Origin: a virus
Taxonomy: Duplodnaviria; Heunggongvirae; Uroviricota; Caudoviricetes
Strand: one strand, 5' to 3'
Virus record (IMG/VR): IMGVR_UViG_3300013102_000003
Location: 6,644-70,643 of that record
DNA: 64,000 nt
Each line of letters starts with the position of its first letter. The stretch's first letter is position 1. The notes beneath the pieces are model-generated. The model searched no databases. It saw only the letters and a list, made by a program, of their open reading frames with translations, and had not been told where the DNA came from. Both the position numbers and the translations under genes were made by a program. Positions 22,086-39,442 of the stretch are shown here, piece by piece.

Positions 22086-23054
22086 TTGCGTCAGCTTGTC
22101 ACGCTCGAAACCATTTCCGAAATCAATCCCATCCCAGATGCTGACCAAATTGAGGTAGCTAAAGTTAAGGGATGGAACGTTGTTGTTAAAAAAGGTGAGT
22201 TCTCCGTTGGTGAAGAAATTCTGTATTTCGAGATCGACTCATTTTTGCCCATCTCAGATCCGCGCTTTGCATTTCTGGAGCCACGTGGCGTCCGTGTACA
22301 GGATGGAGTCACGGGGCATGTCCTCAAGACCGTCCGTCTTCGTGGGCAGTACTCTCAAGGACTTCTCAAACCCGTCTCGGAATTCCCAGAAGGTATCCCT
22401 GATATCGCCAAGTTCGATCCGCCCCTGCCAGCAGGCCTCGACGGCTCGGTGGAGGGTCAATTCCTTTACCAGTTCGCACCAAAAACTGATGCTGAACGCA
22501 TCCAGAATCTCGGTCGAGTCCTCCCTGAAATTCTCTCGCACGAGTGGATTGCAACCGAGAAGATCGACGGCACTTCAACGACAATTGTCAATGACGACGG
22601 AACCATCCGGATCTGCTCCCGAAACTGGGAAATTAGTCGCCCCTCAGCACGTTTCGACCTTGCGGACAAACTCAATCTCGCTGAAATCCTTCCAGTAGAT
22701 CATACACTTCAGGGTGAATACTTCGGTGAGAACATCCAGAGCAACCCTCTCGGCATCAAGGGAACCGACTTCAAGGCCTTCAATCTCTACAAGAAGACCG
22801 AAGACGGCCCCGAAGCCATCCCGTTCAACGAGTGGCCCGACGCATTGCGCTCTCTACAGGTCCCTGTACTGCCTCTAAGGCTCCCGCAGACCATCGATGA
22901 CATCGTGGAGCAGGCTGACGGTTTGAAGTCTCAGATCGCCCCACAGCGCCTCGCAGAGGGTATCGTCTGGCAGGGTCCGAAGGGCTTCCCGTTCCTCGGT
23001 AACCGTCCGGGCTTCAAGGCCATCTCCAACAAGTACCTCGCCAAGCAAAAGTAA
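22086..23054 (+). CDS. ATP-dependent RNA ligase (nucleotidyltransferase superfamily, N-terminal OB-like domain + KxDG NTase domain)
   Basis: Motif I ATEKIDGTS (KxDG), TTG start. The N-terminal about 150 aa OB-like domain precedes the NTase domain, as in Rnl5/DraRnl-type ligases. A dedicated ATP-dependent DNA ligase is already present at 13402. Confidence 0.5.
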   Translation: MRQLVTLETISEINPIPDADQIEVAKVKGWNVVVKKGEFSVGEEILYFEIDSFLPISDPRFAFLEPRGVRVQDGVTGHVLKTVRLRGQYSQGLLKPVSEFPEGIPDIAKFDPPLPAGLDGSVEGQFLYQFAPKTDAERIQNLGRVLPEILSHEWIATEKIDGTSTTIVNDDGTIRICSRNWEISRPSARFDLADKLNLAEILPVDHTLQGEYFGENIQSNPLGIKGTDFKAFNLYKKTEDGPEAIPFNEWPDALRSLQVPVLPLRLPQTIDDIVEQADGLKSQIAPQRLAEGIVWQGPKGFPFLGNRPGFKAISNKYLAKQK

Positions 23055-23063
23055 AGGAGAAAC

Positions 23064-23843
23064 ATGACTGAAGTATTGGTTGGCTCCAAAGCCATGTACC
23101 ACTGGTTCTCGGACGCCCGAGAGCAGAAGGATGTAGACTACTTCTCCGAAAAGCTGGTCTTCGTTGTAGACGGTGCAAGGGTCAGGGTGGAGAACTTCTG
23201 GCACCCGGATCTCGCAAAGTGGAACTGGGGAGAAGTTGCAACTCCGGACGAGCTATACACTATCAAGGTCTCCCACGCTTTCTGGGAACTGAAGAACGGC
23301 TCTTGGGCCAAGCACATGATGGACGTGTTGTTTCTCCAGTCCAAGGGTGCTAAGCTCATCCCGGAGCTTTACAAGATCCTCTACAAGGTCTGGGAAGACA
23401 CCCACGGCAAGAAGAAGGTCAATCTTGAGGCTGACCCGGAGGAATTCTTCAATGACAAGATCGTCAAGCGCATCTATGACCACGACTCCATCCACGAGTC
23501 CGTAGCTTACTACGACCGTCCGCTCTTTGAGCGCATCCTGAGGGATGATTCGGATGTCGCCGTGGACAAGTCAAAGTGGGACGCCATGGATCACGAGGAC
23601 AAGCTGAAGATGGTCCGTGAGGAAATCTACGCCACCGCTCTTGAGCGCAAGCTGATTCCCTCCGACTACACCTCAAGCCCCGGAGCAGCCTACAACTGGA
23701 CGCTCCGTAAGACTATCACGTCCCTCACCAAGGGCTGGTTCGCATTGTTCGTTGTCGAAAACTTCAAAGACCTTACAAAGGCCGATGTCGATTACGTCAA
23801 GCGCCACAAGGACAACGCCCACATGCTAAGACCCTATAAGTAA
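23064..23843 (+). CDS. Hypothetical protein (259 aa)
   Basis: RBS aaggag then ATG. No family recognised. Confidence 0.45.
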   Translation: MTEVLVGSKAMYHWFSDAREQKDVDYFSEKLVFVVDGARVRVENFWHPDLAKWNWGEVATPDELYTIKVSHAFWELKNGSWAKHMMDVLFLQSKGAKLIPELYKILYKVWEDTHGKKKVNLEADPEEFFNDKIVKRIYDHDSIHESVAYYDRPLFERILRDDSDVAVDKSKWDAMDHEDKLKMVREEIYATALERKLIPSDYTSSPGAAYNWTLRKTITSLTKGWFALFVVENFKDLTKADVDYVKRHKDNAHMLRPYK

Positions 23844-23859
23844 AACGAAAGGCAACACA

Positions 23860-24213
23860 ATGTCAATCACACAGGAAATCATTGACTGGCTCAACACAGG
23901 AAATGATTACGATAATCTAGATAGCTACGGCACCTCTGAGTGGATGGAATTCTACGAGGAAATGCCCAACGACCGCTACAACTGGACCTCCAAACGGAAA
24001 CCCGTTATTCTGGCTTCGGGAGAGGCCCGCATCGTGCAGGACTTCGGCGGCGAAGGTCAGGGAGACCAGCGCTACGTCGTGTTCTCCGTAGGTGACAAGT
24101 TCTACCGGGTGGATGGCTACTACGCCTCTTGGGACGGCTCCAACTGGGATGACCCGACCCCGTATGAGGTTACACCCAAGGAAGTCACCGTTATCGAATA
24201 CGAGGCCGTCTAA
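23860..24213 (+). CDS. Paralog family B member 1 (about 115 aa, VVFSVxDxxFxVxGYYxSWxGxxWD motif)
   Basis: N-terminal IIDWLN, central YVVFSVGDKFYRVDGYYASWDGSNWD. Confidence 0.5.
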   Translation: MSITQEIIDWLNTGNDYDNLDSYGTSEWMEFYEEMPNDRYNWTSKRKPVILASGEARIVQDFGGEGQGDQRYVVFSVGDKFYRVDGYYASWDGSNWDDPTPYEVTPKEVTVIEYEAV

Positions 24214-24575
24214 TGTCAGCACTTACAGAGAAGATCGAACAAGAGATCATCGACTGGTACAATGAGGAAAACAAGGAGTACCTAGTCGAGGACGAGCAGG
24301 CTGAGCACCTTGACTCTGCCATTGACGAGTTCACTGACTCCTTGGACCGAAAGACGGGAATCCCTCTCCCGTCAGGACCGGCCAAACTGCTGGACCAGCA
24401 CGGCGGCGAAGATGAGGGTTCCGACTACTGGGTTGTCTTCAGTGTCAACGATGACATCTTCAAGGTCGAGGGCTACTACTCTTCTTGGGAAGGCGTAAAC
24501 TGGGACTCCGTCAAGCTCACCGAAGTTGAGGCAGTTCAGGTTCTCGTGACCAAGTACAAGAAGAAGGGTGTCTAA
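24213..24575 (+). CDS. Paralog family B member 2
   Basis: EIIDWYN…YWVVFSVNDDIFKVEGYYSSWEGVNWD. Start overlaps the previous stop (ATGA-type). Confidence 0.5.
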   Translation: MSALTEKIEQEIIDWYNEENKEYLVEDEQAEHLDSAIDEFTDSLDRKTGIPLPSGPAKLLDQHGGEDEGSDYWVVFSVNDDIFKVEGYYSSWEGVNWDSVKLTEVEAVQVLVTKYKKKGV

Positions 24576-24916
24576 TGGCATTCACCTTCAAGACCATCGG
24601 TCAGGAGATCGCCGTCTGGCACCTCCTGTCTTCCCGGTCCTACGAGGCCAACACGAACAAGGCATTCTATGACGCTGTAACCAGCGGAAAGGTTGTCGAA
24701 CTCAACGACGGCTATGTCCAACTGGTCAAGCACCATTCGGGCGGTTACGAGAACTACGATGACATCTCGTACGTCATCTTCGACTATGACGGCTCCACCT
24801 ACCGCATGGACGTTGACGAGTATGACTCGTGGGACGAAGAGAGCAGTGTCACTGAACCCTACCTTGTCATCCCGGTACCCGTCAATGAAGTACAATACGT
24901 AAGACGAAAGGTCTAA
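24575..24916 (+). CDS. Paralog family B member 3 (divergent)
   Basis: …SYVIFDYDGSTYRMDVDEYDSWDEES. Start overlaps the previous stop. Confidence 0.45.
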   Translation: MAFTFKTIGQEIAVWHLLSSRSYEANTNKAFYDAVTSGKVVELNDGYVQLVKHHSGGYENYDDISYVIFDYDGSTYRMDVDEYDSWDEESSVTEPYLVIPVPVNEVQYVRRKV

Positions 24917-25240
24917 ATGAGCAGCATCGATAAGATCAAGCAGGAAATCCTTGAGTGGGACGCATCCAACAAGGACCAGTACGACAAGTGGAAGGAACCC
25001 AACGCCAACTTCGTTGATCGGTCAGAGAGCCACGGAGACGTAGTCCTCCCGTCAGGCAGGGTCGAGTTCGTTGACATCGAGCGAGACGGAGACACTGCCC
25101 TAGCTGTATTCACCGTCAACGACGAACTGTTCGCTCTCGCGGGCTATTACAGTTCGTGGGGCAGCGAGTGGGACAACGGCCTTTTCCGTGTGGAGAAGCG
25201 CACCGTCACCCTTGAGCGCTACGAACGGGTGGACAGTTGA
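24917..25240 (+). CDS. Paralog family B member 4
   Basis: EILEWDA…LAVFTVNDELFALAGYYSSWGSEWD. Confidence 0.5.
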   Translation: MSSIDKIKQEILEWDASNKDQYDKWKEPNANFVDRSESHGDVVLPSGRVEFVDIERDGDTALAVFTVNDELFALAGYYSSWGSEWDNGLFRVEKRTVTLERYERVDS

Positions 25241-25423
25241 TCTGGCTGGGTGCACTAGGCACCCTAGTCCTGTTCATCCTCCAGATGACCGGCCTGATCG
25301 CCATCTCCGGATGGCTGATCCTTACCCCGCTGCTGATCGGCGTCAGCCTGACCGTCATCTTCTGGGTAATTATCCTGATTATCGGGGTCTTGACCAGCTA
25401 ACAATAATGTAGTAAAATAGAAG

Positions 25424-25452
25424 TACCGCCTCCACGTGGGGCGGTATTTTTA
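25424..25452 (+). terminator. Rho-independent terminator
   Basis: taccgcc-tccacgtgg-ggcggta followed by ttttt. Confidence 0.65.
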
Positions 25453-25453
25453 T

Positions 25454-25527
25454 ACCCCTGTAGCTCAGTTGGATAGAGCGTCCGCCTCCTAAGCGGAAGG
25501 TCACCAGTTCGAATCTGGTCAGGGGTA
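25454..25527 (+). tRNA. tRNA-Arg (CCT)
   Basis: Acceptor acccctg/caggggt perfect. Stem tccgc/gcgga with loop cuCCTaa. T-arm accag-ttcgaat-ctggt. Confidence 0.8.
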
Positions 25528-25547
25528 CTCACAGAAAGGAAAGACAA

Positions 25548-26060
25548 ATGAAAACAATCGTATATTTCGATGTTGACGGCGTCATCAACAGCTTCCACCG
25601 GACCAAGCAGGCCGGATGGAAGGGCGAGTGGGAGCTTGCACAGGTCATCGGCTACAAGATCCACTGGTACACTGACCTCGTTGAGGAAATCAACAAGCTC
25701 TCCAAGATGGAGAACGTCGAGGTCAAGTGGCTCACCACGTGGCAGGACAAGGCCGTAACGGATCTGTGCCCCGCTCTGGGGATCGAGGGCACCTCTTGGG
25801 ACGTTCTCTACGCTGCGGATCAGGAAGACCTGTTCGACCTGTCCAACGGCTGGTGGAAGCTCCGTGCGATCATCAAAGACTACAACATCAGCAAGCCTGA
25901 TAAGATGGTCTGGATTGACGATGACTTCAAGTACGAAGGCAACGCCATGGAGTGGGCCAACTTCCTTGGACCCGAGATTATCCACCCTGTCTCCCCGTTC
26001 ACTGACTGGGGGATGACAAAGGAAGATTTTAATGGTATAATAGAGTTTATCAACAACTAG
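25548..26060 (+). CDS. HAD-superfamily phosphatase
   Basis: Motif I VYFDVDGVIN near the N-terminus and motif IV WIDDD. 170 aa. Confidence 0.55.
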   Translation: MKTIVYFDVDGVINSFHRTKQAGWKGEWELAQVIGYKIHWYTDLVEEINKLSKMENVEVKWLTTWQDKAVTDLCPALGIEGTSWDVLYAADQEDLFDLSNGWWKLRAIIKDYNISKPDKMVWIDDDFKYEGNAMEWANFLGPEIIHPVSPFTDWGMTKEDFNGIIEFINN

Positions 26061-26070
26061 TTGATGAACT

Positions 26071-26142
26071 GCTTCCGTAGCTCAGTGGTAGAGCGCGTTC
26101 TTGGTAAGAACGAGGTCACGGGTTCAATCCCCGTCTGAAGCT
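26071..26142 (+). tRNA. tRNA-Thr (GGT)
   Basis: Perfect stem cgttc/gaacg with loop uuGGTaa, T-arm acggg-ttcaatc-cccgt. The acceptor has one mismatch. Confidence 0.65.
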
Positions 26143-26147
26143 CGGTG

Positions 26148-26251
26148 CTTTCCGTTCCCCATAGTTGGCCTATTGGGTACGTTGATAGGCCTAACCCTAT
26201 AGTGTCAACGCACTGGGGAGGGTCCGTGGGTTCGAATCCCACACGGAAGGC
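26148..26251 (+). ncRNA. Atypical 104-nt tRNA-like RNA with 8-bp acceptor stem, 6-bp internal stem and no canonical 7-nt anticodon loop
   Basis: ctttccgt (26148-26155) pairs 8/8 with acggaagg (26243-26250), which follows the T-arm gtggg-ttcgaat-cccac. D-like stem tcccca/tgggta. Internal 6-bp stem cgttga/tcaacg encloses 19 nt. Confidence 0.35.
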
Positions 26252-26260
26252 ATTCCACTT

Positions 26261-26331
26261 GCGGGTATGGATGAAAGGCAAGTCGTTTGGTTGCAACCCA
26301 AAAGATCTCGGTTCGATTCCGGGTTCCCGCT
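26261..26331 (+). tRNA. tRNA-Cys (GCA)
   Basis: Perfect stem tttgg/ccaaa with loop uuGCAac, T-arm ctcgg-ttcgatt-ccggg. The acceptor has one mismatch. Confidence 0.55.
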
Positions 26332-26878
26332 CCACTTAATCGCACGACCCTACGAAAGGACTGTCATGACAATCGCCACGCTACCAGTAAGAGTGTTCAA
26401 CGCCTCCTACGAAGACCTAGGACCCACCACACTGGATCGCGCCATTGCGCTTGTCGAAGTTCAGGGACGTGCGGAAATCATCATGGTTGATGAGAACACC
26501 ACCATCCGAACAATGGGTGGCCGTGAGTTCTTCCTGCCGAAGATCATTCGCCTGCTCACGATGCGCAAGGTATCCTTCCACTTCGCTCCGGAGACGTGGT
26601 CCAAGCACGGTGTCATCAAGCGTGACAACGCCACCTGTGCGTACTGTGGGAAGCATGGAGACACGGTGGACCACATCCTCGCCAAGGACTTGGGAGGAAG
26701 GGACGAGTGGATGAACACCGTAGCAGCCTGTGTCAAGTGTAACGGCCAGAAGTCCAACCTGACAATGGAGGAATGGGGTAAGCCTGTCCTCTTCGACATG
26801 TCTGAGGACCGTATGATCCCTCGCAAGATGTACTTCAGAGGCGAAAACCCTAGGCGCAAGCGCAAGAAGGACCGATAG
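26267..26878 (+). CDS. HNH endonuclease
   Basis: CAYCGKHGDTVDHILAKDLGGRDEWMNTVAACVKCNGQK HNH/zinc motif. The annotated start overlaps tRNA-Cys, so the true start is probably a downstream ATG (for example the M in …RTVMTIATLP). Confidence 0.6.
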   Translation: MDERQVVWLQPKRSRFDSGFPLHLIARPYERTVMTIATLPVRVFNASYEDLGPTTLDRAIALVEVQGRAEIIMVDENTTIRTMGGREFFLPKIIRLLTMRKVSFHFAPETWSKHGVIKRDNATCAYCGKHGDTVDHILAKDLGGRDEWMNTVAACVKCNGQKSNLTMEEWGKPVLFDMSEDRMIPRKMYFRGENPRRKRKKDR

Positions 26879-26882
26879 AAGC

Positions 26883-26910
26883 AGCCCTCATCTCCGGATG
26901 GGGGCTATTT
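26883..26910 (+). terminator. Terminator hairpin
   Basis: agccctcatc-tccg-gatgggggct followed by attt. Confidence 0.5.
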
Positions 26911-26971
26911 CTATGCCTAAACAGCAACAAGAGATACACTATTGCTGTTTGACCTGTAAAAGAGCAATAAG

Positions 26972-32480: not shown

Positions 32481-32503
32481 CTTGCAAAACTAAGTGAATA
32501 ATG

Positions 32504-32543
32504 GTAGGATGGTTCTAGAAATAGAACCATCCTACTGTTGTTT
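32504..32543 (+). terminator. Rho-independent terminator (perfect 14-bp stem)
   Basis: gtaggatggttcta-gaaa-tagaaccatcctac followed by tgttgttt. Confidence 0.7.
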
Positions 32544-32556
32544 AAGGAACAAATAC

Positions 32557-33666
32557 ATGCCATGGAGCGCCGACGAAAACCGTGATTGGGTACTCTCCCA
32601 CGTTACCAAGGCCGACAGGGTGCTGGATGTAGGGGCAGGAGCCGGAATATGGTCAGACCTCCTACGATCCCGCGTTGAGACTATCTCCGCTGTGGAGATT
32701 TTCGAACCCTACATCGAGCGCTTCGGCCTCAAGGGCAAGTACGACAGCATCTATCTCGGTGACTTCAGGGAACTGGTGATCCCGTACGGACACTTCACCA
32801 CAGTGATCCTTGGGGACGTTCTGGAACACTTTGAGATGGAAGACGCGCTCAAGGTCTGGGTGAAGGCACGTCTGATTGCCGGTCCCACCGGACAAGTCCT
32901 GCTCTCCACCCCGATTGTGGACTGGCCACAGGGAGAGGAAGAAGGAAACATCCACGAGGCACACCTCTCCTTCTTCGACTACGAGGCCCTGTGTGCCCTC
33001 TCAGGCGTCGAGGAAGGCGTGGAGGGGCAACTTATCGGGTCGGTCCGTGCGAGGGGCGCAGCGGCCCCCACAGCGCCTGTCACAGTGGTTATTCCGACCA
33101 TTGCCACACGCCAAGAACAACTCAACCGGGCTGTGGCCAGTGTTTACACCCAGACACTCCGTCCTCAGGCCTTGATTATCTCCGAAGACACTGCTAGACT
33201 AGGCGCACCGGGCAACCGTGATGCAGGACTAGCAAGGGTTTCCACGGAGTGGGTCGCCATGCTGGACGATGACGACTACTTCTACCCTGACCACTTGGAA
33301 ACTCTCTACACGGCAGCGGTTGACACAGGCGCAGACATCGTGTATTCTTGGTTCGACGTTGAAGGCGGGGAAGATCCATTCCCCGAAAACTTCGGCAAGC
33401 CATGGAACCCGGACAAGCCTGTCCAGACGACCGTCACCATCCTTGCCAAGGCTGATGTCATCCGTCAGGCAGGAGGATATTCCGTCAAGGAAGGTATGAC
33501 TGAGGAAGATCTTAGCGAGTTCGCTCAAGGCAACACTGCCGGTGAAGACTTCCGGATGATCTACACTGCCAACAAGCAGGGAGCCAAGATCGTCCACGTG
33601 GCAAAGAAAACTTGGGCATACTGCCATTGGGTAGGGAACACGTCAGGTCGCCCGGACCGTTGGTAA
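32557..33666 (+). CDS. Fusion protein: class I SAM-methyltransferase + GT2 glycosyltransferase
   Basis: N-terminal VLDVGAGAGIW (MTase motif I). C-terminal VTVVIPTIATR…DDDD (GT-A DxD). The start is reassigned to ATG 32557 because the track start lies inside the terminator. Confidence 0.55.
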   Translation: MPWSADENRDWVLSHVTKADRVLDVGAGAGIWSDLLRSRVETISAVEIFEPYIERFGLKGKYDSIYLGDFRELVIPYGHFTTVILGDVLEHFEMEDALKVWVKARLIAGPTGQVLLSTPIVDWPQGEEEGNIHEAHLSFFDYEALCALSGVEEGVEGQLIGSVRARGAAAPTAPVTVVIPTIATRQEQLNRAVASVYTQTLRPQALIISEDTARLGAPGNRDAGLARVSTEWVAMLDDDDYFYPDHLETLYTAAVDTGADIVYSWFDVEGGEDPFPENFGKPWNPDKPVQTTVTILAKADVIRQAGGYSVKEGMTEEDLSEFAQGNTAGEDFRMIYTANKQGAKIVHVAKKTWAYCHWVGNTSGRPDRW

Positions 33667-34020: not shown

Positions 34021-35229
34021 ATGACAACACTTTTTGACTTGCTTGATCCTGAAGAACTCTCCCAGATGATTTCTGAGAAGAGGATCGCCAAGCAGGTCCA
34101 TCCTTCCCTGCCCATCTCCATCTACAACTACACAAACCGCGCCCAATTCATGAACAAATGGACCCAGTCGGAGCGTGTCTGCCGTGGTCTCATTGTCGAA
34201 GACGGCACCAACAAGGTCATTGCCCGTGGTCCGGAGAAGTTCTTCAACTACGGCCAGCCCGGAGCACCGGAGATCGATCTGGATTCTCCCGTGATGATTA
34301 CCCAGAAGGAGGACGGCTCTCTCGGTATCGGATGGTACTATGACGGATTCTCCGGTGTCGCCACTCGCGGAAGCTTCGCCTCAGATCAGGCCAAACACGC
34401 CTCGGCCATGCTTCCCGACTTCCGGAGAGAGTCTTTCAAGTGGCACATGGACCACGACAAGACGAGCATCTTTGAGATAGTCTATCCCGAAAACCGGATT
34501 GTGCTTGATTACGGCGACCGTGACGAGCTTATCGAACTCGGCACTGTGGATAACAAGTCCGGCCTGATTGTCAACAGGCGTCGTGACGCTATTAGGGGCC
34601 GGTGGTACATGCCCCTCTCAGAGGCGCTTGTCTTCCCTATCCCTGCCGACGAGGAAGGGTACGTTCTCGACATCTTCTCGAAAGATTTTGACGAGTGGGG
34701 TACCGGAACCGTGACGGGCCACATTAAGCTCAAGGGCGAAGAGTACAAGATTCTCCACGGCCTGCTGACGAACACCAACGCACGCCGGATCTGGGTCCAG
34801 CTTGCAGCACGTGCATGCCATCAGCTTGTCGAGCAGACCGCCGCCAACAACGGCAAGGAGGTCGAGAAGGTCTGGGCTACGTACGTCGGAGGTGATCCGG
34901 AGGACTTCAAGCGCGTCAAGATCGAAAAGGACATTGTCGATACCCTCTTGACAAATGTACCCGATGAGTTCTATGATTGGGTTACCAAGAAGATCGACGG
35001 CATCAACGACACTGTATCAGACCTGATTTCTCAGGCTATAGCGTTGAGCGGCCAAGCTGCTCTTGTCACTGACAAGCGTAAGCGCCACGAACTCGTGAAG
35101 GATCACCCTCTTTGCAAGGAGATCCTGAACTACGTTGACGACCGAGATCTGTCCCGAATCACACTCAAGGCATGGAAATTTGCAAAGCCGGAAGGTGATG
35201 ACACCCCATTTAGAACAGAAGAGGATTAA
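34021..35229 (+). CDS. Rnl1-family (T4 RnlA-like) RNA ligase
   Basis: Motif I ITQKEDGSLG (KEDG, the Rnl1 hallmark). 402 aa. A Pnkp gene follows two genes downstream, as in the T4 tRNA-repair pair. Confidence 0.6.
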   Translation: MTTLFDLLDPEELSQMISEKRIAKQVHPSLPISIYNYTNRAQFMNKWTQSERVCRGLIVEDGTNKVIARGPEKFFNYGQPGAPEIDLDSPVMITQKEDGSLGIGWYYDGFSGVATRGSFASDQAKHASAMLPDFRRESFKWHMDHDKTSIFEIVYPENRIVLDYGDRDELIELGTVDNKSGLIVNRRRDAIRGRWYMPLSEALVFPIPADEEGYVLDIFSKDFDEWGTGTVTGHIKLKGEEYKILHGLLTNTNARRIWVQLAARACHQLVEQTAANNGKEVEKVWATYVGGDPEDFKRVKIEKDIVDTLLTNVPDEFYDWVTKKIDGINDTVSDLISQAIALSGQAALVTDKRKRHELVKDHPLCKEILNYVDDRDLSRITLKAWKFAKPEGDDTPFRTEED

Positions 35230-35673
35230 TTGAAGAAGCTTGCAGTGGCCGGTATCGTACTGGCATCCGCCCTTACCCTGACAGCCTGTGGAAGTTCCGG
35301 ATACAACTCCGGTTTCGACGGGTTCAACGACGGATACTCCAACAATGGAGGTTGGAATTCCTCCGACTGGGACATGAACAACCCGTCAGTTTGGAACAAC
35401 AACTCCTACTGCCACGGCGGAACGTACCAGCCACTTGCAGGCAATCAGTACTCTTGCGTCAACAATGGAGTGACCTCGCGCCCATCGGCACGGCCCAAAG
35501 CCCCCATTGTCCCGCCGAAGACCCAGCAGGCACCGCCCAAGGAGATTCAGCAGAAGCGCCAGCAGGCTACACAGCAGCGCCAGCAGCAACAGCAAAAGCA
35601 GAACAGTGCCCCGAAGCAGAACAGCTACAAGGCACCGTCAGCACCACGTCCCGCAACGAAGTCGGGTAAATAG
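35230..35673 (+). CDS. Lipoprotein with Gln-rich C-terminus
   Basis: Lipobox LTLTAC. Low-complexity Q/P-rich tail. Confidence 0.5.
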   Translation: MKKLAVAGIVLASALTLTACGSSGYNSGFDGFNDGYSNNGGWNSSDWDMNNPSVWNNNSYCHGGTYQPLAGNQYSCVNNGVTSRPSARPKAPIVPPKTQQAPPKEIQQKRQQATQQRQQQQQKQNSAPKQNSYKAPSAPRPATKSGK

Positions 35674-35682
35674 AAAGGCAAC

Positions 35683-36624
35683 ATGCAGAACAAGAACCAA
35701 GAACTGGTAGTGCTTAGAGGCCTTCAGGGTTCAGGCAAGACCACGTTTGCCCACCAGTGGGTAGCAGAAAACCCGGACTGGCGTTTCCGCCTCAACCGTG
35801 ACGATACCCGCAAGGCAGCTTACAACAAGCTGCACGGACTCTCCCACCACATGGAAGAGAACGTCACACTCTCCGAAACGGCACAGGCAGAAGTCTTGCT
35901 CGCTGCCGGAATCTCCGTCATCGTTGACGCCACCAACCTGAGGGCCAAGGCCGTCAAGGACTGGTACGGTGTAGCGAACAAGGCCGGAGTCCCCGTTCGA
36001 GTCCACGACATTGACACTCCGCTGGAAGAGTGTATTGTTAATGATCAGAACCGAGAAAAGAAGGTAGGTGAGGACGTTATCAGACACTACAATGACCGCT
36101 TTTTCAACAAGGGCAAGCTCCCGCCTGTCCCTCCTAACGTTCTCGCTGAGCCTCTGGGCAGGGCGTGGACACCCAATCCTGACCTGCCTAAGGCTATCTG
36201 GGTTGACATCGACGGCACTCTAGCTGAGCGCGTCCACGATCTGGCTCCCCAGCCCGTCCGTGGCCCGTTTGACGAGGCACGAGTCTACGAGGACGCCGTG
36301 ATCGAGCACATTGCTGAACTGGTCCGACTGCTTCACGCTGCCGGGTACAAGATCATCATCATGTCCGGACGAACGGACTCCTGCCAGCCTGAGACTGAGC
36401 GCTGGCTTCGGGACAACAACATCCCGTACGACGAGATCTTCATGCGCCGTACGGAGCTTGACAAGGGCCGAAAGGACAACCTTGTCAAGCACGATCTCTT
36501 CTGGGATAACGTTGCCCCGAAGTACAACGTGGAGTTCTGCCTTGACGACCGCCAGCAGGTAGTGGACTTCACTCGTGATGTCCTGAAGATCCCGGTACTG
36601 CAAGTACAGCCGGGTAACTTCTGA
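35683..36624 (+). CDS. pnkP: Polynucleotide 5'-kinase/3'-phosphatase (T4 Pnkp-like)
   Basis: N-terminal P-loop kinase LRGLQGSGKTT. C-terminal HAD phosphatase WVDIDGTLAE plus IIMSGR. 313 aa, matching the T4 Pnkp layout. Confidence 0.7.
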   Translation: MQNKNQELVVLRGLQGSGKTTFAHQWVAENPDWRFRLNRDDTRKAAYNKLHGLSHHMEENVTLSETAQAEVLLAAGISVIVDATNLRAKAVKDWYGVANKAGVPVRVHDIDTPLEECIVNDQNREKKVGEDVIRHYNDRFFNKGKLPPVPPNVLAEPLGRAWTPNPDLPKAIWVDIDGTLAERVHDLAPQPVRGPFDEARVYEDAVIEHIAELVRLLHAAGYKIIIMSGRTDSCQPETERWLRDNNIPYDEIFMRRTELDKGRKDNLVKHDLFWDNVAPKYNVEFCLDDRQQVVDFTRDVLKIPVLQVQPGNF

Positions 36625-36809
36625 TGGGCCGGATACCACCAGACCCGCTCACCATCCTCACCTTTGAGGAAAGAAATTCATGGCTTGAGCGGGACGAGGA
36701 AGAGTATTACAACTGGGTACGACGGATTCAGAAGGTTGATTCCGAGCTTCTTGTGAACAACAAGAAGGTCCCGCGTCACCGCTACAATAAGAACCCGCTT
36801 ATCCCGTAG
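36624..36809 (+). CDS. Hypothetical protein (61 aa)
   Basis: Coupled start (ATGA-type). Confidence 0.35.
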   Translation: MGRIPPDPLTILTFEERNSWLERDEEEYYNWVRRIQKVDSELLVNNKKVPRHRYNKNPLIP

Positions 36810-36819
36810 CTTGACCAAG

Positions 36820-36861
36820 AGCAGGCTGTCGTGTAGACTCATACATGACAGCCTGCTTTTG
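36820..36861 (+). terminator. Rho-independent terminator (11-bp perfect stem)
   Basis: agcaggctgtc-N16-gacagcctgct followed by tttt. A tataat at 36865-36870 follows, for the next gene. Confidence 0.7.
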
Positions 36862-36896
36862 CAGTATAATTGAACTACAACAACGAAGGAGTCACC

Positions 36897-37238
36897 ATGT
36901 CTGCTACAACGAAGACCGCCGATCCGATTGTCGAGAGCATCGAGCCGGAGTGCGAGATCATCAAACTCCCGGAGGACAGCGAGGACTACGAGCTTGACGC
37001 CCGAATCCGTTGTGACCACAGTGCCACAGTCGGCAACGAATACACCGCTGGCGGGAAGACAGGCATCACCTGTGGCTCCCAGTCCTACGTCAAGGTGACG
37101 CTGAAGTCGGGCGGAAGCCTGTTCTTCTGCAAGCACCACGCCGACAAGGAGGAAGCGGCCCTCAAGCCCATCTCCAAGCAGTGGTACACCGAAGAAGCAC
37201 GACTCATCGAAAACCGAAAGACAGGATCAGAAAACTAG
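36897..37238 (+). CDS. Hypothetical Cys-containing protein
   Basis: Strong RBS aaggag then ATG 36897. CDH…CGSQ…CKHH motifs. Confidence 0.45.
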   Translation: MSATTKTADPIVESIEPECEIIKLPEDSEDYELDARIRCDHSATVGNEYTAGGKTGITCGSQSYVKVTLKSGGSLFFCKHHADKEEAALKPISKQWYTEEARLIENRKTGSEN

Positions 37239-37239
37239 A

Positions 37240-38067
37240 ATGACAACCATCATCCGAGGGCCGGAGTCAGGCCCTCCAAGCCCAAGCGAAATGACCTTCG
37301 AAGAAGAACTCATGGAAGCCCTGTCCAAGCCGGTCAGTGATCCACTGGACAATGTATCCATCTACCTCGTAGGTGGCGCTGTCCGTGAGATCGTTCGCGG
37401 GTTCCCGGAGAAGGTCAAGGACTGGGACTTCGCTGTAGCGGCACGTTCGTTTGATGAGATGCGTGACTACCTGATCGAGAACGGTTTCGAGATCTTCCTC
37501 GAAACCCCGCAGTACTTCACCATCCGTGCCCGTGCGCCCAAGGACACGTTCACGTTCGCTGGGCTGGACATGACGGGGAAGACGTTCGACTTCACGCTGT
37601 GCCGCTCTGAGGGCGATTACACCGATGGCCGTCACCCGGACTCGGTTGAGGTCGGCACCATCCGGGAGGATCTGGCGCGTCGTGACTTCACGATGAACGC
37701 AATCGCTCTGGACGCCGCTGGAGGCCTCATTGACCCCTTCGGTGGGGCTGAGGACATCAAGGTCGGTTTGATCCGCTGTGTGGGCGGTACAGAGCGTCTG
37801 AGGGAGGATTCCCTGAGGATGCTCCGGGCCATCAGGTTCGCGGTTCAACTTGACTTCAACCTGTCCAACGAAATCGTTGGATTCCTGTATGATGTCAACA
37901 ACGTACCGCTACTGGATAACGTCTCGTCGGAGCGCATCCGCGAAGAGTTGACCAAGGCGTTCAAGGCTGATACTCTGGAGACGTTGTATTACCTCCAGTC
38001 CTACCACGCTCTGACGGCTTCGATCTTCTCCGGAGACATGTGGCTGCTGCCTACGGTCAAAGGATAG
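37240..38067 (+). CDS. tRNA nucleotidyltransferase / poly(A) polymerase head-domain protein (CCA-adding-like, truncated form)
   Basis: YLVGGAVRE…DWDF (GG…D.D) head motif and RRDFTMNAIAL (RRD motif). 275 aa. Confidence 0.6.
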   Translation: MTTIIRGPESGPPSPSEMTFEEELMEALSKPVSDPLDNVSIYLVGGAVREIVRGFPEKVKDWDFAVAARSFDEMRDYLIENGFEIFLETPQYFTIRARAPKDTFTFAGLDMTGKTFDFTLCRSEGDYTDGRHPDSVEVGTIREDLARRDFTMNAIALDAAGGLIDPFGGAEDIKVGLIRCVGGTERLREDSLRMLRAIRFAVQLDFNLSNEIVGFLYDVNNVPLLDNVSSERIREELTKAFKADTLETLYYLQSYHALTASIFSGDMWLLPTVKG

Positions 38068-38096
38068 TTGTATGTCCTTGGAATTCGTGGTAGAAT
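38068..38096 (+). promoter_or_regulatory. Promoter (TTGTAT-17-TAGAAT)
   Basis: ttgtatgtccttggaattcgtggtagaatagag. Confidence 0.4.
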
Positions 38097-38146
38097 AGAG
38101 TGGTAAGTCCCCGTAATGGGGTAACTACCACCGTAAGTGAATACAA

Positions 38147-39442
38147 ATGGCTAATACCGTTGTTCTAGACACGTCCGTACTCCTATCCGCTGGAAGGACG
38201 GCGTTGTATTCCTTTGGTGAACAAAACGTAGTCCTCCCCCTTGTAGTTGTAAGTGAGCTTGAGACGAAACGCAATGACCCCGATCTTGGTCTTGCTGCTC
38301 GCTCCGTCCTACGAGCCTTGGATACCCTCATCTCTCAGGGTGACATCCGGGAAGGCGTCTCCCTTGGGGAGGGCTATGGCACCATCCGCATCGAAACCAA
38401 CCATGTGACCGACGTTCCGGCTGCTCTGAAGAGTAGCCAGTCCAACGACACGAAGATCATCACGGTTGCCCTCATGCTCAGCAATGAGCTAGATGGGGAT
38501 GTGTTCCTTGTTACTAAGGACATCCCTCTCAGGGTAAAGGCTTCCATCGTGAATGTCAAGACCCAGAATTTTACTCCGGCGAACATCTCCGGAGACTACA
38601 TCGACAACACGGAAATCCACTGGGTTACCGCTGATCAGATCGCTGAAGTCCACGCTGCCGGATTCATCCGCCTTGATCTGGACATCCCGCGTAACGTTGG
38701 TGTCATTCTCCGCAGTGAAGAGAATCCCAAGAACACCGCCATGGTGATCTCCGGAAAGCAGTACGAGTTTGACCTCATCGAACAGCACAACGTTGCTGGG
38801 CTGGCTTCCCGGTCTGCCGAGCAGGCTTTCGCGGTCAACTACCTCATGGATGACTCAATCAAGATTGTCTCCCTTGGCGGGCGTGCAGGTACCGGTAAGA
38901 CTACCCTAGCACTTGCTGCCGGTGTTGAACAGCTAAACATCAACAATGGCACGTACAAGAAGATCATCGTCTTCCGCTCCATGCAGTCCGTTGGCGGCGA
39001 AGAGCTTGGCTTCCTTCCGGGAACCGAGTCCGAGAAGATGGACCCTTGGACCGCAGCCGTCTATGATAGTCTAAACTCCTTCCTCACACCGAAGCAGATT
39101 GGTGATCTGAAGGTTCGTCAGGCTATCGAGGTTCTTCCGCTGACACACATCCGTGGACGTACGTTCAACAACGCATTCATCATCATTGATGAGTCCCAGA
39201 ACCTTGAGCGTGCAACCCTCCTGACCGCGCTCTCCCGCCTTGGAAAGAACTCTAAGGCTGTCATGACGTGGGACGTGTCCCAGCGTGACAACTTCCGCGT
39301 AGGCCGTCACGATGGCGTTTACGAGGTTGCCAGCAGGCTTCTTGGTGAGAAGCTGTTCGCCCACACTAGCCTCAAAAAGTCCGAACGTTCCGACGTTGCA
39401 GAGCTTGTTTCCCGTGTTCTAGATGACTTTGACATGAAGTAA
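38147..39442 (+). CDS. PhoH2-like protein (N-terminal PIN RNase domain + PhoH ATPase)
   Basis: The N-terminus MANTVVLDTSVLL is a PIN motif. Walker A GRAGTGKTT and IIIDESQNL Walker B mark the PhoH domain. Confidence 0.7.
   Translation: MANTVVLDTSVLLSAGRTALYSFGEQNVVLPLVVVSELETKRNDPDLGLAARSVLRALDTLISQGDIREGVSLGEGYGTIRIETNHVTDVPAALKSSQSNDTKIITVALMLSNELDGDVFLVTKDIPLRVKASIVNVKTQNFTPANISGDYIDNTEIHWVTADQIAEVHAAGFIRLDLDIPRNVGVILRSEENPKNTAMVISGKQYEFDLIEQHNVAGLASRSAEQAFAVNYLMDDSIKIVSLGGRAGTGKTTLALAAGVEQLNINNGTYKKIIVFRSMQSVGGEELGFLPGTESEKMDPWTAAVYDSLNSFLTPKQIGDLKVRQAIEVLPLTHIRGRTFNNAFIIIDESQNLERATLLTALSRLGKNSKAVMTWDVSQRDNFRVGRHDGVYEVASRLLGEKLFAHTSLKKSERSDVAELVSRVLDDFDMK

What the first reader, a model, noticed from the sequence alone, without database searches (positions are those of the whole stretch)
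22086..39442. Extended RNA-repair / tRNA-maintenance gene set co-resident with about 30 tRNA genes
Seen in sequence: an Rnl1-type ligase (KEDG) at 34021, a T4-type Pnkp (P-loop kinase + DxDGT phosphatase) at 35683, a CCA-adding-type nucleotidyltransferase at 37240, PhoH2 (PIN + PhoH) at 38147, a second KxDG RNA ligase at 22086, and a HAD phosphatase at 25548. Established knowledge: in T4, Rnl1 + Pnkp repair host anticodon-nuclease (PrrC) cuts in tRNA. Inference: this phage carries a larger kit (end-healing, sealing, CCA re-addition, plus its own tRNA supply) to resist tRNA-targeting host defences such as anticodon nucleases, or retron or CCA-trimming toxin systems.
Basis: partly seen in the sequence, partly recalled or inferred. 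Interest (0 to 1): 0.7.

Follow-up and report, generated by a model that had tools for sequence, protein, structure and literature searches.

The report
Phage tRNA set with RNA-repair kit
A large soil phage related to known Arthrobacter phages carries 30 tRNA genes plus enzymes that heal, seal and re-tail broken RNA; every gene call holds up, but this kind of kit is already described for large phages, so it is a well-equipped new example and not a new kind of system.

Summary
They are an Rnl1-family RNA ligase, a T4-type Pnkp, a class II CCA-type nucleotidyltransferase, PhoH2 (PIN+PhoH), an Rnl5/NgrRnl-type nick-sealing RNA ligase, and a 'Swiss-army-knife' HAD phosphatase. There are 30 tRNA genes covering all 20 amino acids.

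The 17-kb range is not one island. The parts lie in three places, separated by DNA-repair, glycosyltransferase and membrane-protein genes.

The window belongs to the Arthrobacter phage Atuin/Mimi group (about 190 kb). GenBank already annotates the same genes there.

In 80 viral contigs with a related ligase, Pnkp lies within 10 kb in 58 and tRNA genes in 50. CCA and PhoH2 adjacency is seen only in the closest relatives.

The counter-defence reading is plausible but untested here, and it is already published for jumbo phages (Iyer et al. 2021). The CCA enzyme also has a plain housekeeping role, because 26 of 30 phage tRNA genes lack an encoded CCA.

The one unusual point is that this CCA enzyme has only the head and neck domains (275 aa). 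It belongs to a large, apparently uncharacterised short family.

The parts
9090..26334 (+). Array of 30 tRNA genes covering all 20 amino acids, interrupted by protein genes. Only 4 (Tyr, Lys-UUU, His, Cys) encode a full 3' CCA.
   Evidence: ARAGORN finds 29. Rfam finds 28 at gathering score plus tRNA-Ser(GGA) at 13249-13333. The 3' ends were read directly from the sequence.
9782..11407 (+). Ro60/Rsr orthologue (TROVE plus vWA domains) inside the tRNA array.
   Evidence: Pfam TROVE 63.6 bits plus a sub-cut-off VWA_2 match (26.2 bits, cut-off 27). PHROG 850 'RNA-binding protein' E 2e-51. 71% identical to Atuin gp111, 'Ro-like RNA binding protein'.
11877..12025 (+). Candidate Y RNA (YrlA-like): a permuted tRNA-like module (T arm, acceptor-like hairpin, D arm) closed by two long-range stems, about 470 nt downstream of Ro60.
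   Evidence: Rfam YrlA 29.4 bits, below its gathering score of 69. On a 4-genome alignment, 92.7% of cells pair and 9 of 32 pairs have compensatory changes; 0 of 500 shuffles reach this, and slid controls give 37-44%. Mimi lacks Ro in the region read and also lacks the spacer that holds the element.
22086..23054 (+). Rnl5-type (NgrRnl/DraRnl-like) RNA ligase: N-terminal OB domain plus C-terminal nucleotidyltransferase domain, lysine K159 in KIDG.
   Evidence: Full-length match to Naegleria RNA ligase 5cot, E 1e-46. Pfam PHA02142 OB plus RNA_ligase. NCBIfam RNA_lig_DRB0094 142.6 bits against a cut-off of 151.
25548..26060 (+). Stand-alone HAD phosphatase of the 'Swiss-army-knife' RNA-repair type, lying between tRNA-Arg(CCU) and tRNA-Thr(GGU).
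   Evidence: Pfam HAD_SAK_2 31.7 bits against a cut-off of 27.5. DVDG and DDD motifs are present. Atuin gp157 'phosphatase' is 48% identical at the same position.
34021..35229 (+). Rnl1-family RNA ligase: nucleotidyltransferase domain plus an all-helical C-terminal domain.
   Evidence: A profile of 39 homologues aligns with T4 Rnl1 residues 38-252, E 3e-17, covering KEDGSL, FEIV, EGYV and HIKLK. AF2 model pLDDT 91. The best fold matches are T4 Rnl1, E about 1e-15, then the fungal Trl1 ligase domain.
35230..35673 (+). Small predicted lipoprotein (signal peptide, LTAC lipobox, low-complexity tail) between ligase and Pnkp. It is conserved in position but is probably not part of the RNA chemistry.
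   Evidence: Translation. No Pfam or PHROG hit. Homologues at the same place in Atuin and Mimi.
35683..36624 (+). T4-type polynucleotide kinase-phosphatase (Pnkp): N-terminal P-loop 5'-kinase and C-terminal DxDxT 3'-phosphatase.
   Evidence: Pfam AAA_33 plus HAD_PNKP, E 5e-41. Full-length matches to Capnocytophaga Pnkp1 4xrp (1e-38) and T4 Pnk 1ltq (2e-26). GSGKT, RDD, DIDGT, SGR and DDR motifs are present.
36897..37238 (+). DUF7455 small Cys/His-rich protein, ending 1 nt before the CCA-enzyme gene. Function unknown.
   Evidence: Pfam DUF7455 49 bits. In the viral loci it appears only where the CCA gene is also present (6 of 7 CCA loci), all from the close clade. Only close homologues were retrieved.
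37240..38067 (+). Short (275 aa) class II CCA-type tRNA nucleotidyltransferase with head and neck domains only; the body and tail domains are missing.
   Evidence: Aligns to residues 22-202 of the 404-aa Bacillus CCA enzyme 1miv. NCBIfam PRK13299 positions 24-210 of 396. AF2 pLDDT 91. Foldseek gives about 230-245 aligned columns, TM 0.65 by query length and 0.47-0.5 by target length. Motifs A-E are invariant in 52 short homologues.
38147..39442 (+). PhoH2: N-terminal PIN nuclease domain fused to a PhoH ATPase/RNA helicase domain.
   Evidence: Pfam PIN_4 (8e-21) plus PhoH (2e-51). NCBIfam 'RNA 5'-3' helicase PhoH2' aligned 2-426 of 427, 424 bits. Walker A GTGKTT and Walker B DESQ are present. 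Labelled 'RecA-like DNA recombinase' in GenBank relatives.
39460..39488 (+). Terminator-like hairpin (12-bp stem, then a T-rich tail) directly after PhoH2. It may mark the end of a ligase-to-PhoH2 transcription unit.
   Evidence: Consensus scan only. Gene spacing within 34021-39442 is -1 to 87 nt.
41519..42166 (+). RlaP (RNA-ligase-associated Pol-beta) nucleotidyltransferase.
   Evidence: Pfam RlaP 69.9 bits against a cut-off of 23. GS...DTD active-site motif is present. Conserved in Atuin and Mimi. The family adds 1-2 nucleotides to damaged RNA 3' ends (PMC12776372).
42177..43619 (+). Classical AAA ATPase directly downstream of RlaP. Any link to RNA repair is unproven.
   Evidence: Pfam AAA 84 bits. 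The pair is conserved in Atuin but not found in the Mimi region read.

Best explanation
The window is part of the early/replication region of a large (about 170-190 kb) actinobacteriophage of the Arthrobacter phage Atuin/Mimi group. The phage brings its own translation-support module: 30 tRNAs for all 20 amino acids, plus enzymes that make and keep tRNAs usable.

Proposed mechanism:
(a) Most phage tRNAs are transcribed without CCA. The short phage CCA enzyme completes their 3' ends, and it can also rebuild trimmed or corrupted ends.
[quoted passage not shown] The Rnl1-type ligase then reseals the loop, as in T4.
(c) RlaP can add back one or two nucleotides lost at the break. The SAK-type HAD phosphatase may help clear phosphates.
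(d) The Rnl5-type ligase seals nicks in duplex regions.
(e) Ro60 with its Y-RNA-like partner handles misfolded or damaged RNAs.
(f) PhoH2's role is open; it may degrade or remodel RNA.

The net effect is to keep translation running during infection, both as housekeeping for the phage tRNA pool and as insurance against tRNA-targeting host nucleases and toxins.

Shown here: family membership, intact active sites, gene linkage, CCA-less tRNA genes. Inferred: the substrates, and the counter-defence purpose.
For: - Families and catalytic residues.
- The ligase is Rnl1-like over its whole length by fold.
- Genes in the 34021-39442 block are tightly spaced, and a terminator-like hairpin follows.
- The same block (ligase, lipoprotein, Pnkp, DUF7455, CCA, PhoH2, then RlaP) is conserved in Atuin and Mimi at 55-78% protein identity.
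- In 80 IMG/VR loci with a ligase relative at 29-87% identity, Pnkp lies within 10 kb in 58, at least one tRNA in 50 (often 15-32 tRNAs), and RlaP in 14.
- 25 of 29 ARAGORN tRNA genes lack CCA, as does the 30th. Relatives are similar: 3 of 31 and 0 of 32 encode CCA.
- Literature: T4 Rnl1 plus Pnkp reverse PrrC damage, and jumbo-phage repair kits are described (PMC7824862, PMC10264068). RlaP biochemistry is in PMC12776372. The CCA enzyme counteracts MenT3 (PMC11541572). Cas12a3 cuts tRNA tails (PMC12851939).
Against: - No expression, activity or infection data exist for this phage.
- No host is known, and no host nuclease has been identified.
- CCA, PhoH2 and DUF7455 sit next to the ligase only in close relatives, where shared ancestry alone explains the gene order.
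- The parts are spread over 34 kb among unrelated genes.
- Several parts are dispensable within the clade. Ro60, HAD_SAK and the AAA ATPase were not found in the Mimi region read, and the Rnl5-type ligase was not found in Atuin.
- The HAD_SAK match is weak.
- All proteins fall below NCBIfam equivalog cut-offs.
- The rate at which tRNA genes lie near any random gene of a large phage was not measured, so the tRNA linkage has no baseline.
Confidence: 0.6

Rival explanations
1. Housekeeping only. The enzymes exist to produce and quality-control the phage's own large tRNA pool: CCA addition to CCA-less transcripts, trimming or repair of processing intermediates, and Ro60/Y RNA surveillance. Host defence plays no part.
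For: - 26 of 30 phage tRNA genes lack CCA, and relatives are similar.
- CCA-less tRNA genes are the rule in Actinobacteria, where the CCA enzyme is essential for maturation (PMC5143459, PMC11541572).
- Ro60/Y RNA is a quality-control system in bacteria (PMC4201824).
- The kit lies inside or beside the tRNA array.
Against: - Ordinary tRNA maturation needs no 5'-kinase/3'-phosphatase plus ligase. No tRNA here has an intron or is split.
- In every studied case, Rnl1 plus Pnkp act on nuclease-inflicted breaks (T4/PrrC, as summarised in PMC10264068 and PMC7824862).
- The host already has a CCA enzyme.
Confidence: 0.25
2. The ligases and Pnkp serve nucleic-acid transactions unrelated to tRNA. Examples are sealing RNA-DNA junctions during replication or repair, processing phage mRNAs, or a moonlighting role like tail-fibre attachment by T4 gp63. 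Their nearness to tRNA genes would then reflect only the layout of a non-structural gene region.
For: - The Rnl5-type enzyme family seals nicks in duplexes whose 3'-OH strand is RNA (my recall of the NgrRnl/DraRnl biochemistry; the homology is shown).
- The region also holds a DNA ligase, a gene annotated as Mre11 nuclease in the relatives, an exonuclease, a helicase and a primase.
- T4 Rnl1 homologues are annotated 'RNA ligase and tail fiber protein attachment catalyst'.
Against: - The Rnl1-Pnkp pair keeps company with tRNA arrays in many unrelated viral contigs.
- A dedicated DNA ligase is present separately.
- RlaP, Ro60 and the CCA enzyme are RNA-specific families (PMC12776372, PMC4201824).
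Confidence: 0.1
3. PhoH2, and possibly the whole 34-39 kb block, is offensive and not protective. The PIN-PhoH helicase-nuclease would degrade host RNA to free nucleotides and ribosomes, while the repair enzymes protect phage RNAs from this self-inflicted activity.
For: [quoted passage not shown]
- PhoH2 is the most conserved protein of the block, 75-78% identical to the relatives against 55-66% for its neighbours.
- It may share a transcription unit with the repair genes.
Against: No evidence on targets. The ligase-Pnkp pair occurs without PhoH2 in most related loci; only 5 of 80 have it.
Confidence: 0.05

Closest known systems
Bacteriophage T4 tRNA restriction-repair pathway (Rnl1/gp63 plus Pnkp/PseT against the PrrC anticodon nuclease)
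   Same: - An Rnl1-family ligase with the same catalytic motifs and an all-helical C-terminal domain.
- A Pnkp with the same kinase-N/phosphatase-C architecture.
- Co-residence with phage tRNA genes.
- An RlaP homologue, as in T4 (NrdC.11, PMC12776372).
   Different: - Only about 20-30% identity to the T4 proteins, and far below the T4 RnlA equivalog cut-off (51 against 242 bits).
- An actinobacterial host, with no known PrrC-type trigger.
- The kit also includes Ro60/Y RNA, a CCA enzyme, PhoH2, an Rnl5-type ligase and a SAK-type HAD.
- 30 tRNAs against 8 in T4 (the T4 number is from my own knowledge).
RNA-repair and tRNA-provisioning systems of jumbo phages (Iyer, Anantharaman, Krishnan, Burroughs, Aravind 2021, PMC7824862, section 3.4.9)
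   Same: Essentially the same parts list and the same interpretation. The list is many tRNAs, Rnl1/Rnl2-type ligases, PNK-HAD, SAK-HAD, RlaP, CCA-adding enzyme, ROT/TROVE protein and PIN-PhoH.
   Different: - This genome is just under the usual 200-kb jumbo threshold and infects Actinobacteria.
- It combines nearly all the listed parts in one genome.
- It lacks RtcB, 2H and cRec phosphoesterases, KptA and Thg1, at least in this window.
Arthrobacter phages Atuin, Mimi, Racecar, Talia1610 (GenBank OK040794, MN234211, MN234206, PQ559666)
   Same: - Same gene order and the same tRNA order.
- Genes already annotated as RNA ligase, polynucleotide kinase, tRNA nucleotidyltransferase, Ro-like RNA binding protein, phosphatase and nucleotidyl transferase.
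   Different: - Only 55-90% protein identity.
- The window combines parts that are split among the relatives: Ro60, HAD_SAK and AAA as in Atuin, and the Rnl5-type ligase as in Mimi, Racecar and Talia1610.
- It adds a DNA ligase inside the tRNA array.
- PhoH2 is mislabelled 'RecA-like DNA recombinase' in the relatives.
Bacterial Pnkp1-Rnl-Hen1 RNA repair complex (Capnocytophaga gingivalis, PDB 4xrp)
   Same: The Pnkp here is most similar to Pnkp1 of that system (E 1e-38, full length). It is likewise encoded separately from its ligase.
   Different: - No Hen1 methyltransferase. The nearby methyltransferase-glycosyltransferase fusion at 32494-33666 shows no Hen1 similarity.
- The ligase is Rnl1-type.
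Bacterial and phage Ro60 (Rsr) with YrlA-type Y RNAs (Chen et al. 2014, PMC4201824)
   Same: - A TROVE/vWA protein with an adjacent RNA that carries a permuted tRNA-like module.
- Previously reported in mycobacteriophages.
   Different: - The RNA scores well below the Rfam YrlA threshold (29 against 69 bits).
- It lies within a tRNA array, separated from Ro60 by a tRNA-Thr gene.

Membership tests
Rnl1 (T4 RnlA-type) RNA ligase | Covalent nucleotidyltransferase motifs with a lysine nucleophile (motif I KxDG, and motifs III, IV, V) | tested here: met
   K96-E-D-G, E152 (FEIV), E212-G213 (EGYV) and K236/K238 (HIKLK) align with T4 Rnl1 K99, E159, E227/G228 and K240/K242. They are invariant in 39 homologues. 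The T4 residue numbering is from my recall of published mutagenesis.
Rnl1 (T4 RnlA-type) RNA ligase | Rnl1-specific N-terminal elements (T4 R54, K75, F77) | tested here: met
   CRG (R55) and EKFFN (K73, F74) align with the T4 sequence and are invariant.
Rnl1 (T4 RnlA-type) RNA ligase | All-helical C-terminal domain in place of an OB domain | tested here: met
   The AF2 model has helices only from residue 240 to 387. Whole-length Foldseek matches go to T4 Rnl1 and fungal Trl1-LIG. No separate superposition of this domain alone was possible.
Rnl1 (T4 RnlA-type) RNA ligase | Seals 3'-OH/5'-phosphate breaks in tRNA anticodon loops | not testable with these tools
   Needs enzyme assays.
Rnl1 (T4 RnlA-type) RNA ligase | Score above NCBIfam TIGR02308 equivalog cut-off | tested here: not met
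   51.5 bits against a cut-off of 242. It is a family member by Pfam (44 bits against 28.3) but not a close equivalent of T4 RnlA.
T4-type polynucleotide kinase-phosphatase (Pnkp) | N-terminal P-loop 5'-kinase with catalytic Asp and Arg residues | tested here: met
   GLQGSGKTT and LNRDDTR align with T4 Pnk and Pnkp1.
T4-type polynucleotide kinase-phosphatase (Pnkp) | C-terminal DxDxT acyl-phosphatase domain, with domain order kinase then phosphatase | tested here: met
   DIDGT, SGR, K274 and DDR are present. HAD_PNKP matches positions 1-143 of 143, E 5e-41.
Class II CCA-adding enzyme | Catalytic motifs A-E (GGxVRD...DxD, RRDF, EDxxR and the rest) | tested here: met
   G45, G46, R49, D61, D63, R147-R148-D149, E189-D190-xx-R193, R232 and E236 are invariant or nearly so in 52 short homologues.
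Class II CCA-adding enzyme | Full four-domain architecture (head, neck, body, tail), about 370-420 aa | tested here: not met
   The protein is 275 aa. It aligns only to residues 22-202 of the 404-aa 1miv. The TM-score is 0.65 by query length but 0.47-0.5 by target length. The body and tail domains, which hold the tRNA, are absent.
Class II CCA-adding enzyme | Adds C, C, A to tRNA 3' ends | not testable with these tools
   Sequence alone cannot tell CCA-, CC- or A-adding enzymes from poly(A) polymerase. The best NCBIfam match is a CCA enzyme model.
PhoH2 | N-terminal PIN domain fused to a C-terminal PhoH ATPase, both with intact motifs | tested here: met
   PIN_4 at 5-142 and PhoH at 221-419. 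End-to-end alignment to the NCBIfam PhoH2 model. D8, D125, Walker A and Walker B are present.
Rnl5 (DraRnl/NgrRnl) nick-sealing RNA ligase | N-terminal OB domain followed by a C-terminal nucleotidyltransferase domain with KxDG | tested here: met
   Residues 2-322 align to NgrRnl 5-338, E 1e-46. TEKIDGTS aligns with TVKLDGSS.
RlaP nucleotidyltransferase (PF10127) | Pol-beta fold with GS...DxD, and linkage to RNA ligase genes | tested here: met
   69.9 bits against a cut-off of 23. GSRAYG...DTD is present. RlaP lies within 10 kb of the ligase in 14 of 80 related loci; in this window it is 6.3 kb downstream.
Ro60/Rsr with YrlA Y RNA | TROVE plus vWA protein | tested here: met
   The vWA match is just under Pfam's cut-off (26.2 bits against 27).
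Ro60/Rsr with YrlA Y RNA | Adjacent RNA matching the YrlA model at the curated threshold | tested here: not met
   29.4 bits against a gathering score of 69. A YrlA-like structure is nevertheless supported by covariation.
SAK ('Swiss-army-knife') HAD phosphatase | HAD fold with the DxD nucleophile motif and a family profile match | tested here: inconclusive
   Just over the Pfam cut-off (31.7 against 27.5 bits). The motif is present. No PHROG or NCBIfam support.

The most novel reading that the evidence does not exclude
The 275-aa CCA-type enzyme represents a large, uncharacterised family of 'mini' class II tRNA nucleotidyltransferases, about 225-260 aa, with head and neck domains only.

There are at least 297 clusters at 50% identity with E <= 1e-30, and nearly all of the 150 best-scoring ones are this short. 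One member is in Cellulophaga phage phi4:1.

The reading is that these enzymes work without the body and tail domains that normally hold and measure the tRNA. They might instead use a partner such as the gene-adjacent, possibly translationally coupled, DUF7455 protein. This would give phages a private 3'-end completion and repair activity, independent of the host enzyme and able to offset acceptor-end attacks by MenT/AbiE-type toxins or Cas12a3.
Probability: 0.2. Interest if true: 0.5.

Novelty: new member of a known kind. Interest (0 to 1): 0.3.

Why it matters
The window holds, in one actinophage, most of the RNA-repair and tRNA-maintenance parts catalogued so far for large phages. Close cultured relatives (Arthrobacter phages Atuin and Mimi) differ by natural presence or absence of several parts.

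That makes the group a practical system for asking which parts protect against which tRNA-targeting defences in Actinobacteria, where tRNA-cutting toxins (VapC, MazF) and tRNA-tail-extending toxins (MenT) are common.

It does not change current understanding, because the concept and the gene families are already published. The short CCA enzyme family and the phage Y-RNA-like element are the two leads most worth bench work.

Tried and rejected
1. The conserved 147-aa ORF between ligase and Pnkp (35230-35673) might have been a cRec-type cyclic phosphodiesterase, since such genes are linked to RNA ligases (PMC7824862). Rejected: it has a signal peptide, a lipobox and a low-complexity tail, and no family hit.

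2. The methyltransferase upstream of the ligase (32494-33666) might have been Hen1, as in Pnkp1-Rnl-Hen1 systems. Rejected: it is a generic SAM methyltransferase fused to a GT2 glycosyltransferase, with no Hen1 match.

3. The 'RNase_T' Pfam hit at 19843-20577 might have been a tRNA 3'-trimming RNase T. Not supported: PHROG and the relatives' annotation point to a DnaQ-like DNA polymerase exonuclease.

4. The C74-only 3' ends of the tRNA genes (C after the discriminator base, but no CCA) looked like a phage-specific signal: 29 of 29 here and 447 of 458 in 25 related viral loci. Rejected as special: in a control of random bacterial loci, 66 of 83 CCA-less tRNA genes (80%) also have C74.

5. I looked for YrlA at Rfam's gathering score in 27 Ro60-encoding or related viral loci. 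None was found. The Rfam model is too strict for these phage RNAs, so I used covariation on 4 genomes instead.

6. I tried to test DUF7455-CCA linkage in distant genomes. The homologue search returned only close relatives at 56% identity or more, so the linkage is not independent of shared ancestry.

7. A PADLOC scan of the kit proteins gave only generic AAA and P-loop similarities.

Full report
**What is there**

The window is 54% G+C, and its genes lie almost all on the + strand. ARAGORN finds 29 tRNA genes between 9090 and 26334. Rfam confirms 28 of them at its gathering score. With looser filters it adds a 30th at 13249-13333, which folds as a class II tRNA with anticodon GGA, that is tRNA-Ser. 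Together the 30 genes cover all 20 amino acids.

Each matches the named family above Pfam's curated cut-off.

**The enzymes one by one**

*Rnl1-type ligase, 34021-35229 (402 aa).* It matches T4 Rnl1 in the solved-structure library (E 2e-11). A profile of 39 homologues extends the alignment to T4 residues 38-252 (E 3e-17). That stretch covers the lysine motif KEDGSL, FEIV, EGYV and HIKLK, all invariant in the family.
- An AlphaFold model (pLDDT 91) has a nucleotidyltransferase domain followed by an all-helical C-terminal domain.
- Its best fold matches are the three T4 Rnl1 structures (E about 1e-15), then the fungal tRNA ligase Trl1.
- So it is an RNA ligase of the Rnl1 lineage, not a DNA ligase.
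- A separate ATP-dependent DNA ligase sits at 13402-14379.

*Pnkp, 35683-36624.* It is a full-length homologue of Capnocytophaga Pnkp1 (1e-38) and T4 Pnk (2e-26), with the kinase P-loop and the DxDxT phosphatase motifs intact.

*Rnl5-type ligase, 22086-23054.* It is a full-length homologue of the Naegleria nick-sealing RNA ligase (1e-46). This is the Rnl5 type, with an N-terminal OB domain.

*PhoH2, 38147-39442.* It aligns end to end with the PhoH2 model.

*HAD protein, 25548-26060.* It only just passes the HAD_SAK_2 threshold.

None of these proteins reaches NCBIfam's equivalog cut-offs. They are divergent members of their families, not close copies of the studied enzymes.

- Ro60/Rsr orthologue (TROVE plus vWA) at 9782-11407, inside the tRNA array.
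- RlaP nucleotidyltransferase at 41519-42166. A recent preprint shows that this family adds one or two nucleotides to damaged RNA 3' ends and restores aminoacylation of over-damaged tRNA (PMC12776372).
- A classical AAA ATPase at 42177-43619, next to RlaP.
- A Y-RNA-like element at 11877-12025, downstream of Ro60 between tRNA-Thr and tRNA-Phe. It has sub-threshold similarity to the Rfam YrlA model (29.4 bits against 69).

The same element is present in Atuin and in two viral contigs. On that 4-sequence alignment, a YrlA-like structure (two closing stems around a T arm, an acceptor-like hairpin and a D arm) pairs in 92.7% of cells. Nine of its 32 pairs show compensatory changes. Controls with the partners slid by 1-3 columns give 37-44% pairing and at most 3 such pairs. 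Mimi has no Ro60 gene in the region read, and there tRNA-Thr and tRNA-Phe are 4 nt apart, so the element is absent. Ro60 with tRNA-like Y RNAs in phages is already known (PMC4201824).

**Layout**

The parts sit in three places:
- inside the tRNA array: Ro60, the Y-RNA-like element, the Rnl5-type ligase and the HAD protein;
- a tight block at 34021-39442: ligase, a small lipoprotein, Pnkp, a 61-aa ORF, DUF7455, the CCA enzyme and PhoH2. Gaps between genes run from -1 to 87 nt, and a terminator-like hairpin follows at 39460-39488;
- RlaP and the AAA ATPase at 41.5-43.6 kb.

Between them lie genes for a protein annotated as Mre11 nuclease in the relatives, glycosyltransferases, DUF932, an SPFH protein and a GDPD-domain protein.

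**Relatives and linkage**

The nearest GenBank genomes are Arthrobacter phages Atuin, Mimi, Racecar and Talia1610, each about 192-194 kb. The ligase protein itself is recorded on metagenome contigs of up to 168.6 kb, and I read a 114.7-kb one carrying the same genes. Gene order and tRNA order are shared, and GenBank already labels the genes RNA ligase, polynucleotide kinase, tRNA nucleotidyltransferase, Ro-like RNA binding protein, phosphatase and nucleotidyl transferase. PhoH2 is mislabelled 'RecA-like DNA recombinase'.

A local comparison separates core from variable parts:

| Part | Window | Atuin | Mimi |
|---|---|---|---|
| Rnl1 ligase, lipoprotein, Pnkp, DUF7455, CCA, PhoH2, RlaP | yes | yes | yes |
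| Ro60, HAD_SAK, AAA ATPase | yes | yes | not found in the region read |
| Rnl5-type ligase | yes | not found | yes (89% identical) |
| DNA ligase in the tRNA array | yes | not found | not found |

The Rnl5-type ligase is also present in Racecar and Talia1610 at 90-91% identity.

Beyond the clade, I scanned 80 IMG/VR loci that encode a ligase relative at 29-87% identity, looking 10 kb to either side:

| Gene within 10 kb | Loci (of 80) |
|---|---|
| Pnkp | 58 |
| at least one tRNA (often 15-32) | 50 |
| RlaP | 14 |
| Ro60 | 7 |
| CCA enzyme | 7 |
| PhoH2 | 5 |

So the ligase-Pnkp-tRNA association is deep and recurrent. CCA and PhoH2 adjacency is seen only in close relatives and may be no more than inherited gene order. 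I did not measure how often tRNAs lie near a random gene of a large phage.

**The CCA enzyme**

Read directly from the sequence, 25 of the 29 ARAGORN tRNA genes lack an encoded CCA, as does the 30th. In the relatives only 3 of 31 (Atuin) and 0 of 32 (Mimi) encode it. In Actinobacteria most tRNA genes lack CCA and the host CCA enzyme is essential (PMC5143459, PMC11541572). The phage enzyme therefore has an obvious maturation role, whether or not it also counters defence.

The counter-defence idea has experimental backing elsewhere. Over-expressed CCA enzyme rescues Mycobacterium smegmatis from the tRNA-tail-extending toxin MenT3 (PMC11541572). A CRISPR effector, Cas12a3, blocks phage by cutting tRNA 3' tails (PMC12851939).

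The enzyme here is unusually short, at 275 aa.
- It aligns only with the head and neck of the roughly 400-aa enzymes.
- A confident model (pLDDT 91) superposes on class II CCA enzymes over about 230-245 columns. The TM-score is 0.65 by its own length but only 0.47-0.5 by theirs.
- An exhaustive profile-free search finds 297 clusters with E <= 1e-30. Nearly all of the best 150 are 225-260 aa and align end to end.
- Motifs A-E are invariant in 52 of these homologues.
- Cellulophaga phage phi4:1 has a 244-aa member. Mycobacteriophage Wildcat and Caulobacter phage BL47 carry full-length forms.
- I found no paper on this short form.

**How it most likely works**

The best reading is a translation-support module.
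- The phage supplies its own tRNAs and completes them with its own CCA enzyme.
- It can reverse nuclease damage. [quoted passage not shown]
- The Rnl5-type ligase deals with nicks in duplex regions.
- Ro60 and its Y RNA deal with defective RNAs.
- PhoH2 remains unexplained.

The steps shown here are family membership, intact active sites, linkage and CCA-less tRNA genes. The substrates and the purpose are inferred from T4 and from the comparative literature.

The main rival is that the kit is pure housekeeping for the phage tRNA pool. Against this, ordinary maturation needs no kinase-phosphatase plus ligase, and none of the tRNA genes is split or carries an intron.

**Comparison with what is known, and verdict**

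The parts list and the interpretation match section 3.4.9 of Iyer et al. 2021 on jumbo phages (PMC7824862, read) almost item for item. The tRNA-supply side matches van den Berg et al. 2023 (PMC10264068). Close relatives are already annotated.

This is a new and rather complete member of a known kind of system.

Interest is modest. The short CCA enzyme family and the phage Y-RNA-like element are the two points worth following up.

Noticed in passing
window 11877-12025 (+); also Atuin L004:24072-24217, L092:4616-4761, L093:4558-4696: A conserved structured RNA about 150 nt long lies downstream of the Ro60 gene. It has a permuted tRNA-like module (YrlA-type Y RNA candidate). Covariation supports the structure: 9 of 32 pairs are compensatory in 4 genomes. 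It scores far below Rfam's YrlA threshold. It is absent from Mimi, which also has no Ro60 gene in the region read.
   Followed up: partly
window 11537-11625 (+): A second, weaker tRNA-like/YrlA-like fragment lies between Ro60 and tRNA-Thr (Rfam tRNA 26.5 bits with the anticodon loop missing; YrlA partial 26.4 bits). It could be a second Y-like RNA or a decayed tRNA gene.
   Followed up: no
window 13249-13333 (+): A 30th tRNA gene, tRNA-Ser(GGA), is missed by ARAGORN but found by Rfam with loose filters (38.8 bits). It matches the position of tRNA-Ser(gga) in Atuin and Mimi.
   Followed up: yes
window 37240-38067 (+): The CCA-type enzyme has head and neck domains only (275 aa). It belongs to a large family of 225-260-aa homologues (297 clusters at E <= 1e-30), with all class II catalytic motifs conserved. 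No paper on this short form was found.
   Followed up: partly
all tRNA 3' ends, window 9090-26334; viral loci L019-L087; control loci L122-L241: All 29 ARAGORN-called tRNA genes, and the 30th, encode a C right after the discriminator base, yet only 4 of the 30 continue to a full CCA. The same holds in 447 of 458 tRNA genes of related viral loci. A bacterial control shows that 80% of CCA-less tRNA genes also keep this C, so the pattern is general and not phage-specific.
   Followed up: yes
window 38147-39442; Atuin gp179, Mimi gp185, Racecar gp186: The PhoH2 gene (PIN plus PhoH) is annotated 'RecA-like DNA recombinase' or 'ASCE ATPase' in the GenBank relatives. This looks like a mis-annotation.
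   Followed up: partly
window 22086-23054 against 34021-39442: The Rnl5-type ligase is 89-91% identical to that of Mimi, Racecar and Talia1610, while neighbouring kit proteins are only 55-78% identical, and the gene is absent from Atuin. This suggests recent exchange of the gene or unusually strong constraint. The DEDD exonuclease is similarly uneven: 82% to Mimi and 46% to Atuin.
   Followed up: no
window 13402-14379 (+): An ATP-dependent DNA ligase gene is inserted in the middle of the tRNA array. It was not found at this place in Atuin or Mimi.
   Followed up: no
window 36897-37238 (+): A small Cys/His-rich DUF7455 protein ends 1 nt before the CCA-enzyme gene, and in related viral loci it is seen only together with that gene. 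It could be a partner protein or simply a conserved neighbour. Only close homologues could be retrieved.
   Followed up: partly
window 26366-26878 (+): An HNH endonuclease gene lies directly after tRNA-Cys. It is conserved at this spot in Atuin and Mimi, and a similar HNH gene sits beside tRNA-Cys in Streptomyces phage Patelgo.
   Followed up: no
loci L019, L025, L051, L053, L058; Streptomyces phage Patelgo L006:4672-4939: Several related large actinophage-like contigs carry a short tmRNA-like gene within their tRNA arrays, next to the ligase. This window shows only a weak sub-threshold tmRNA hit at 26167-26243.
   Followed up: no
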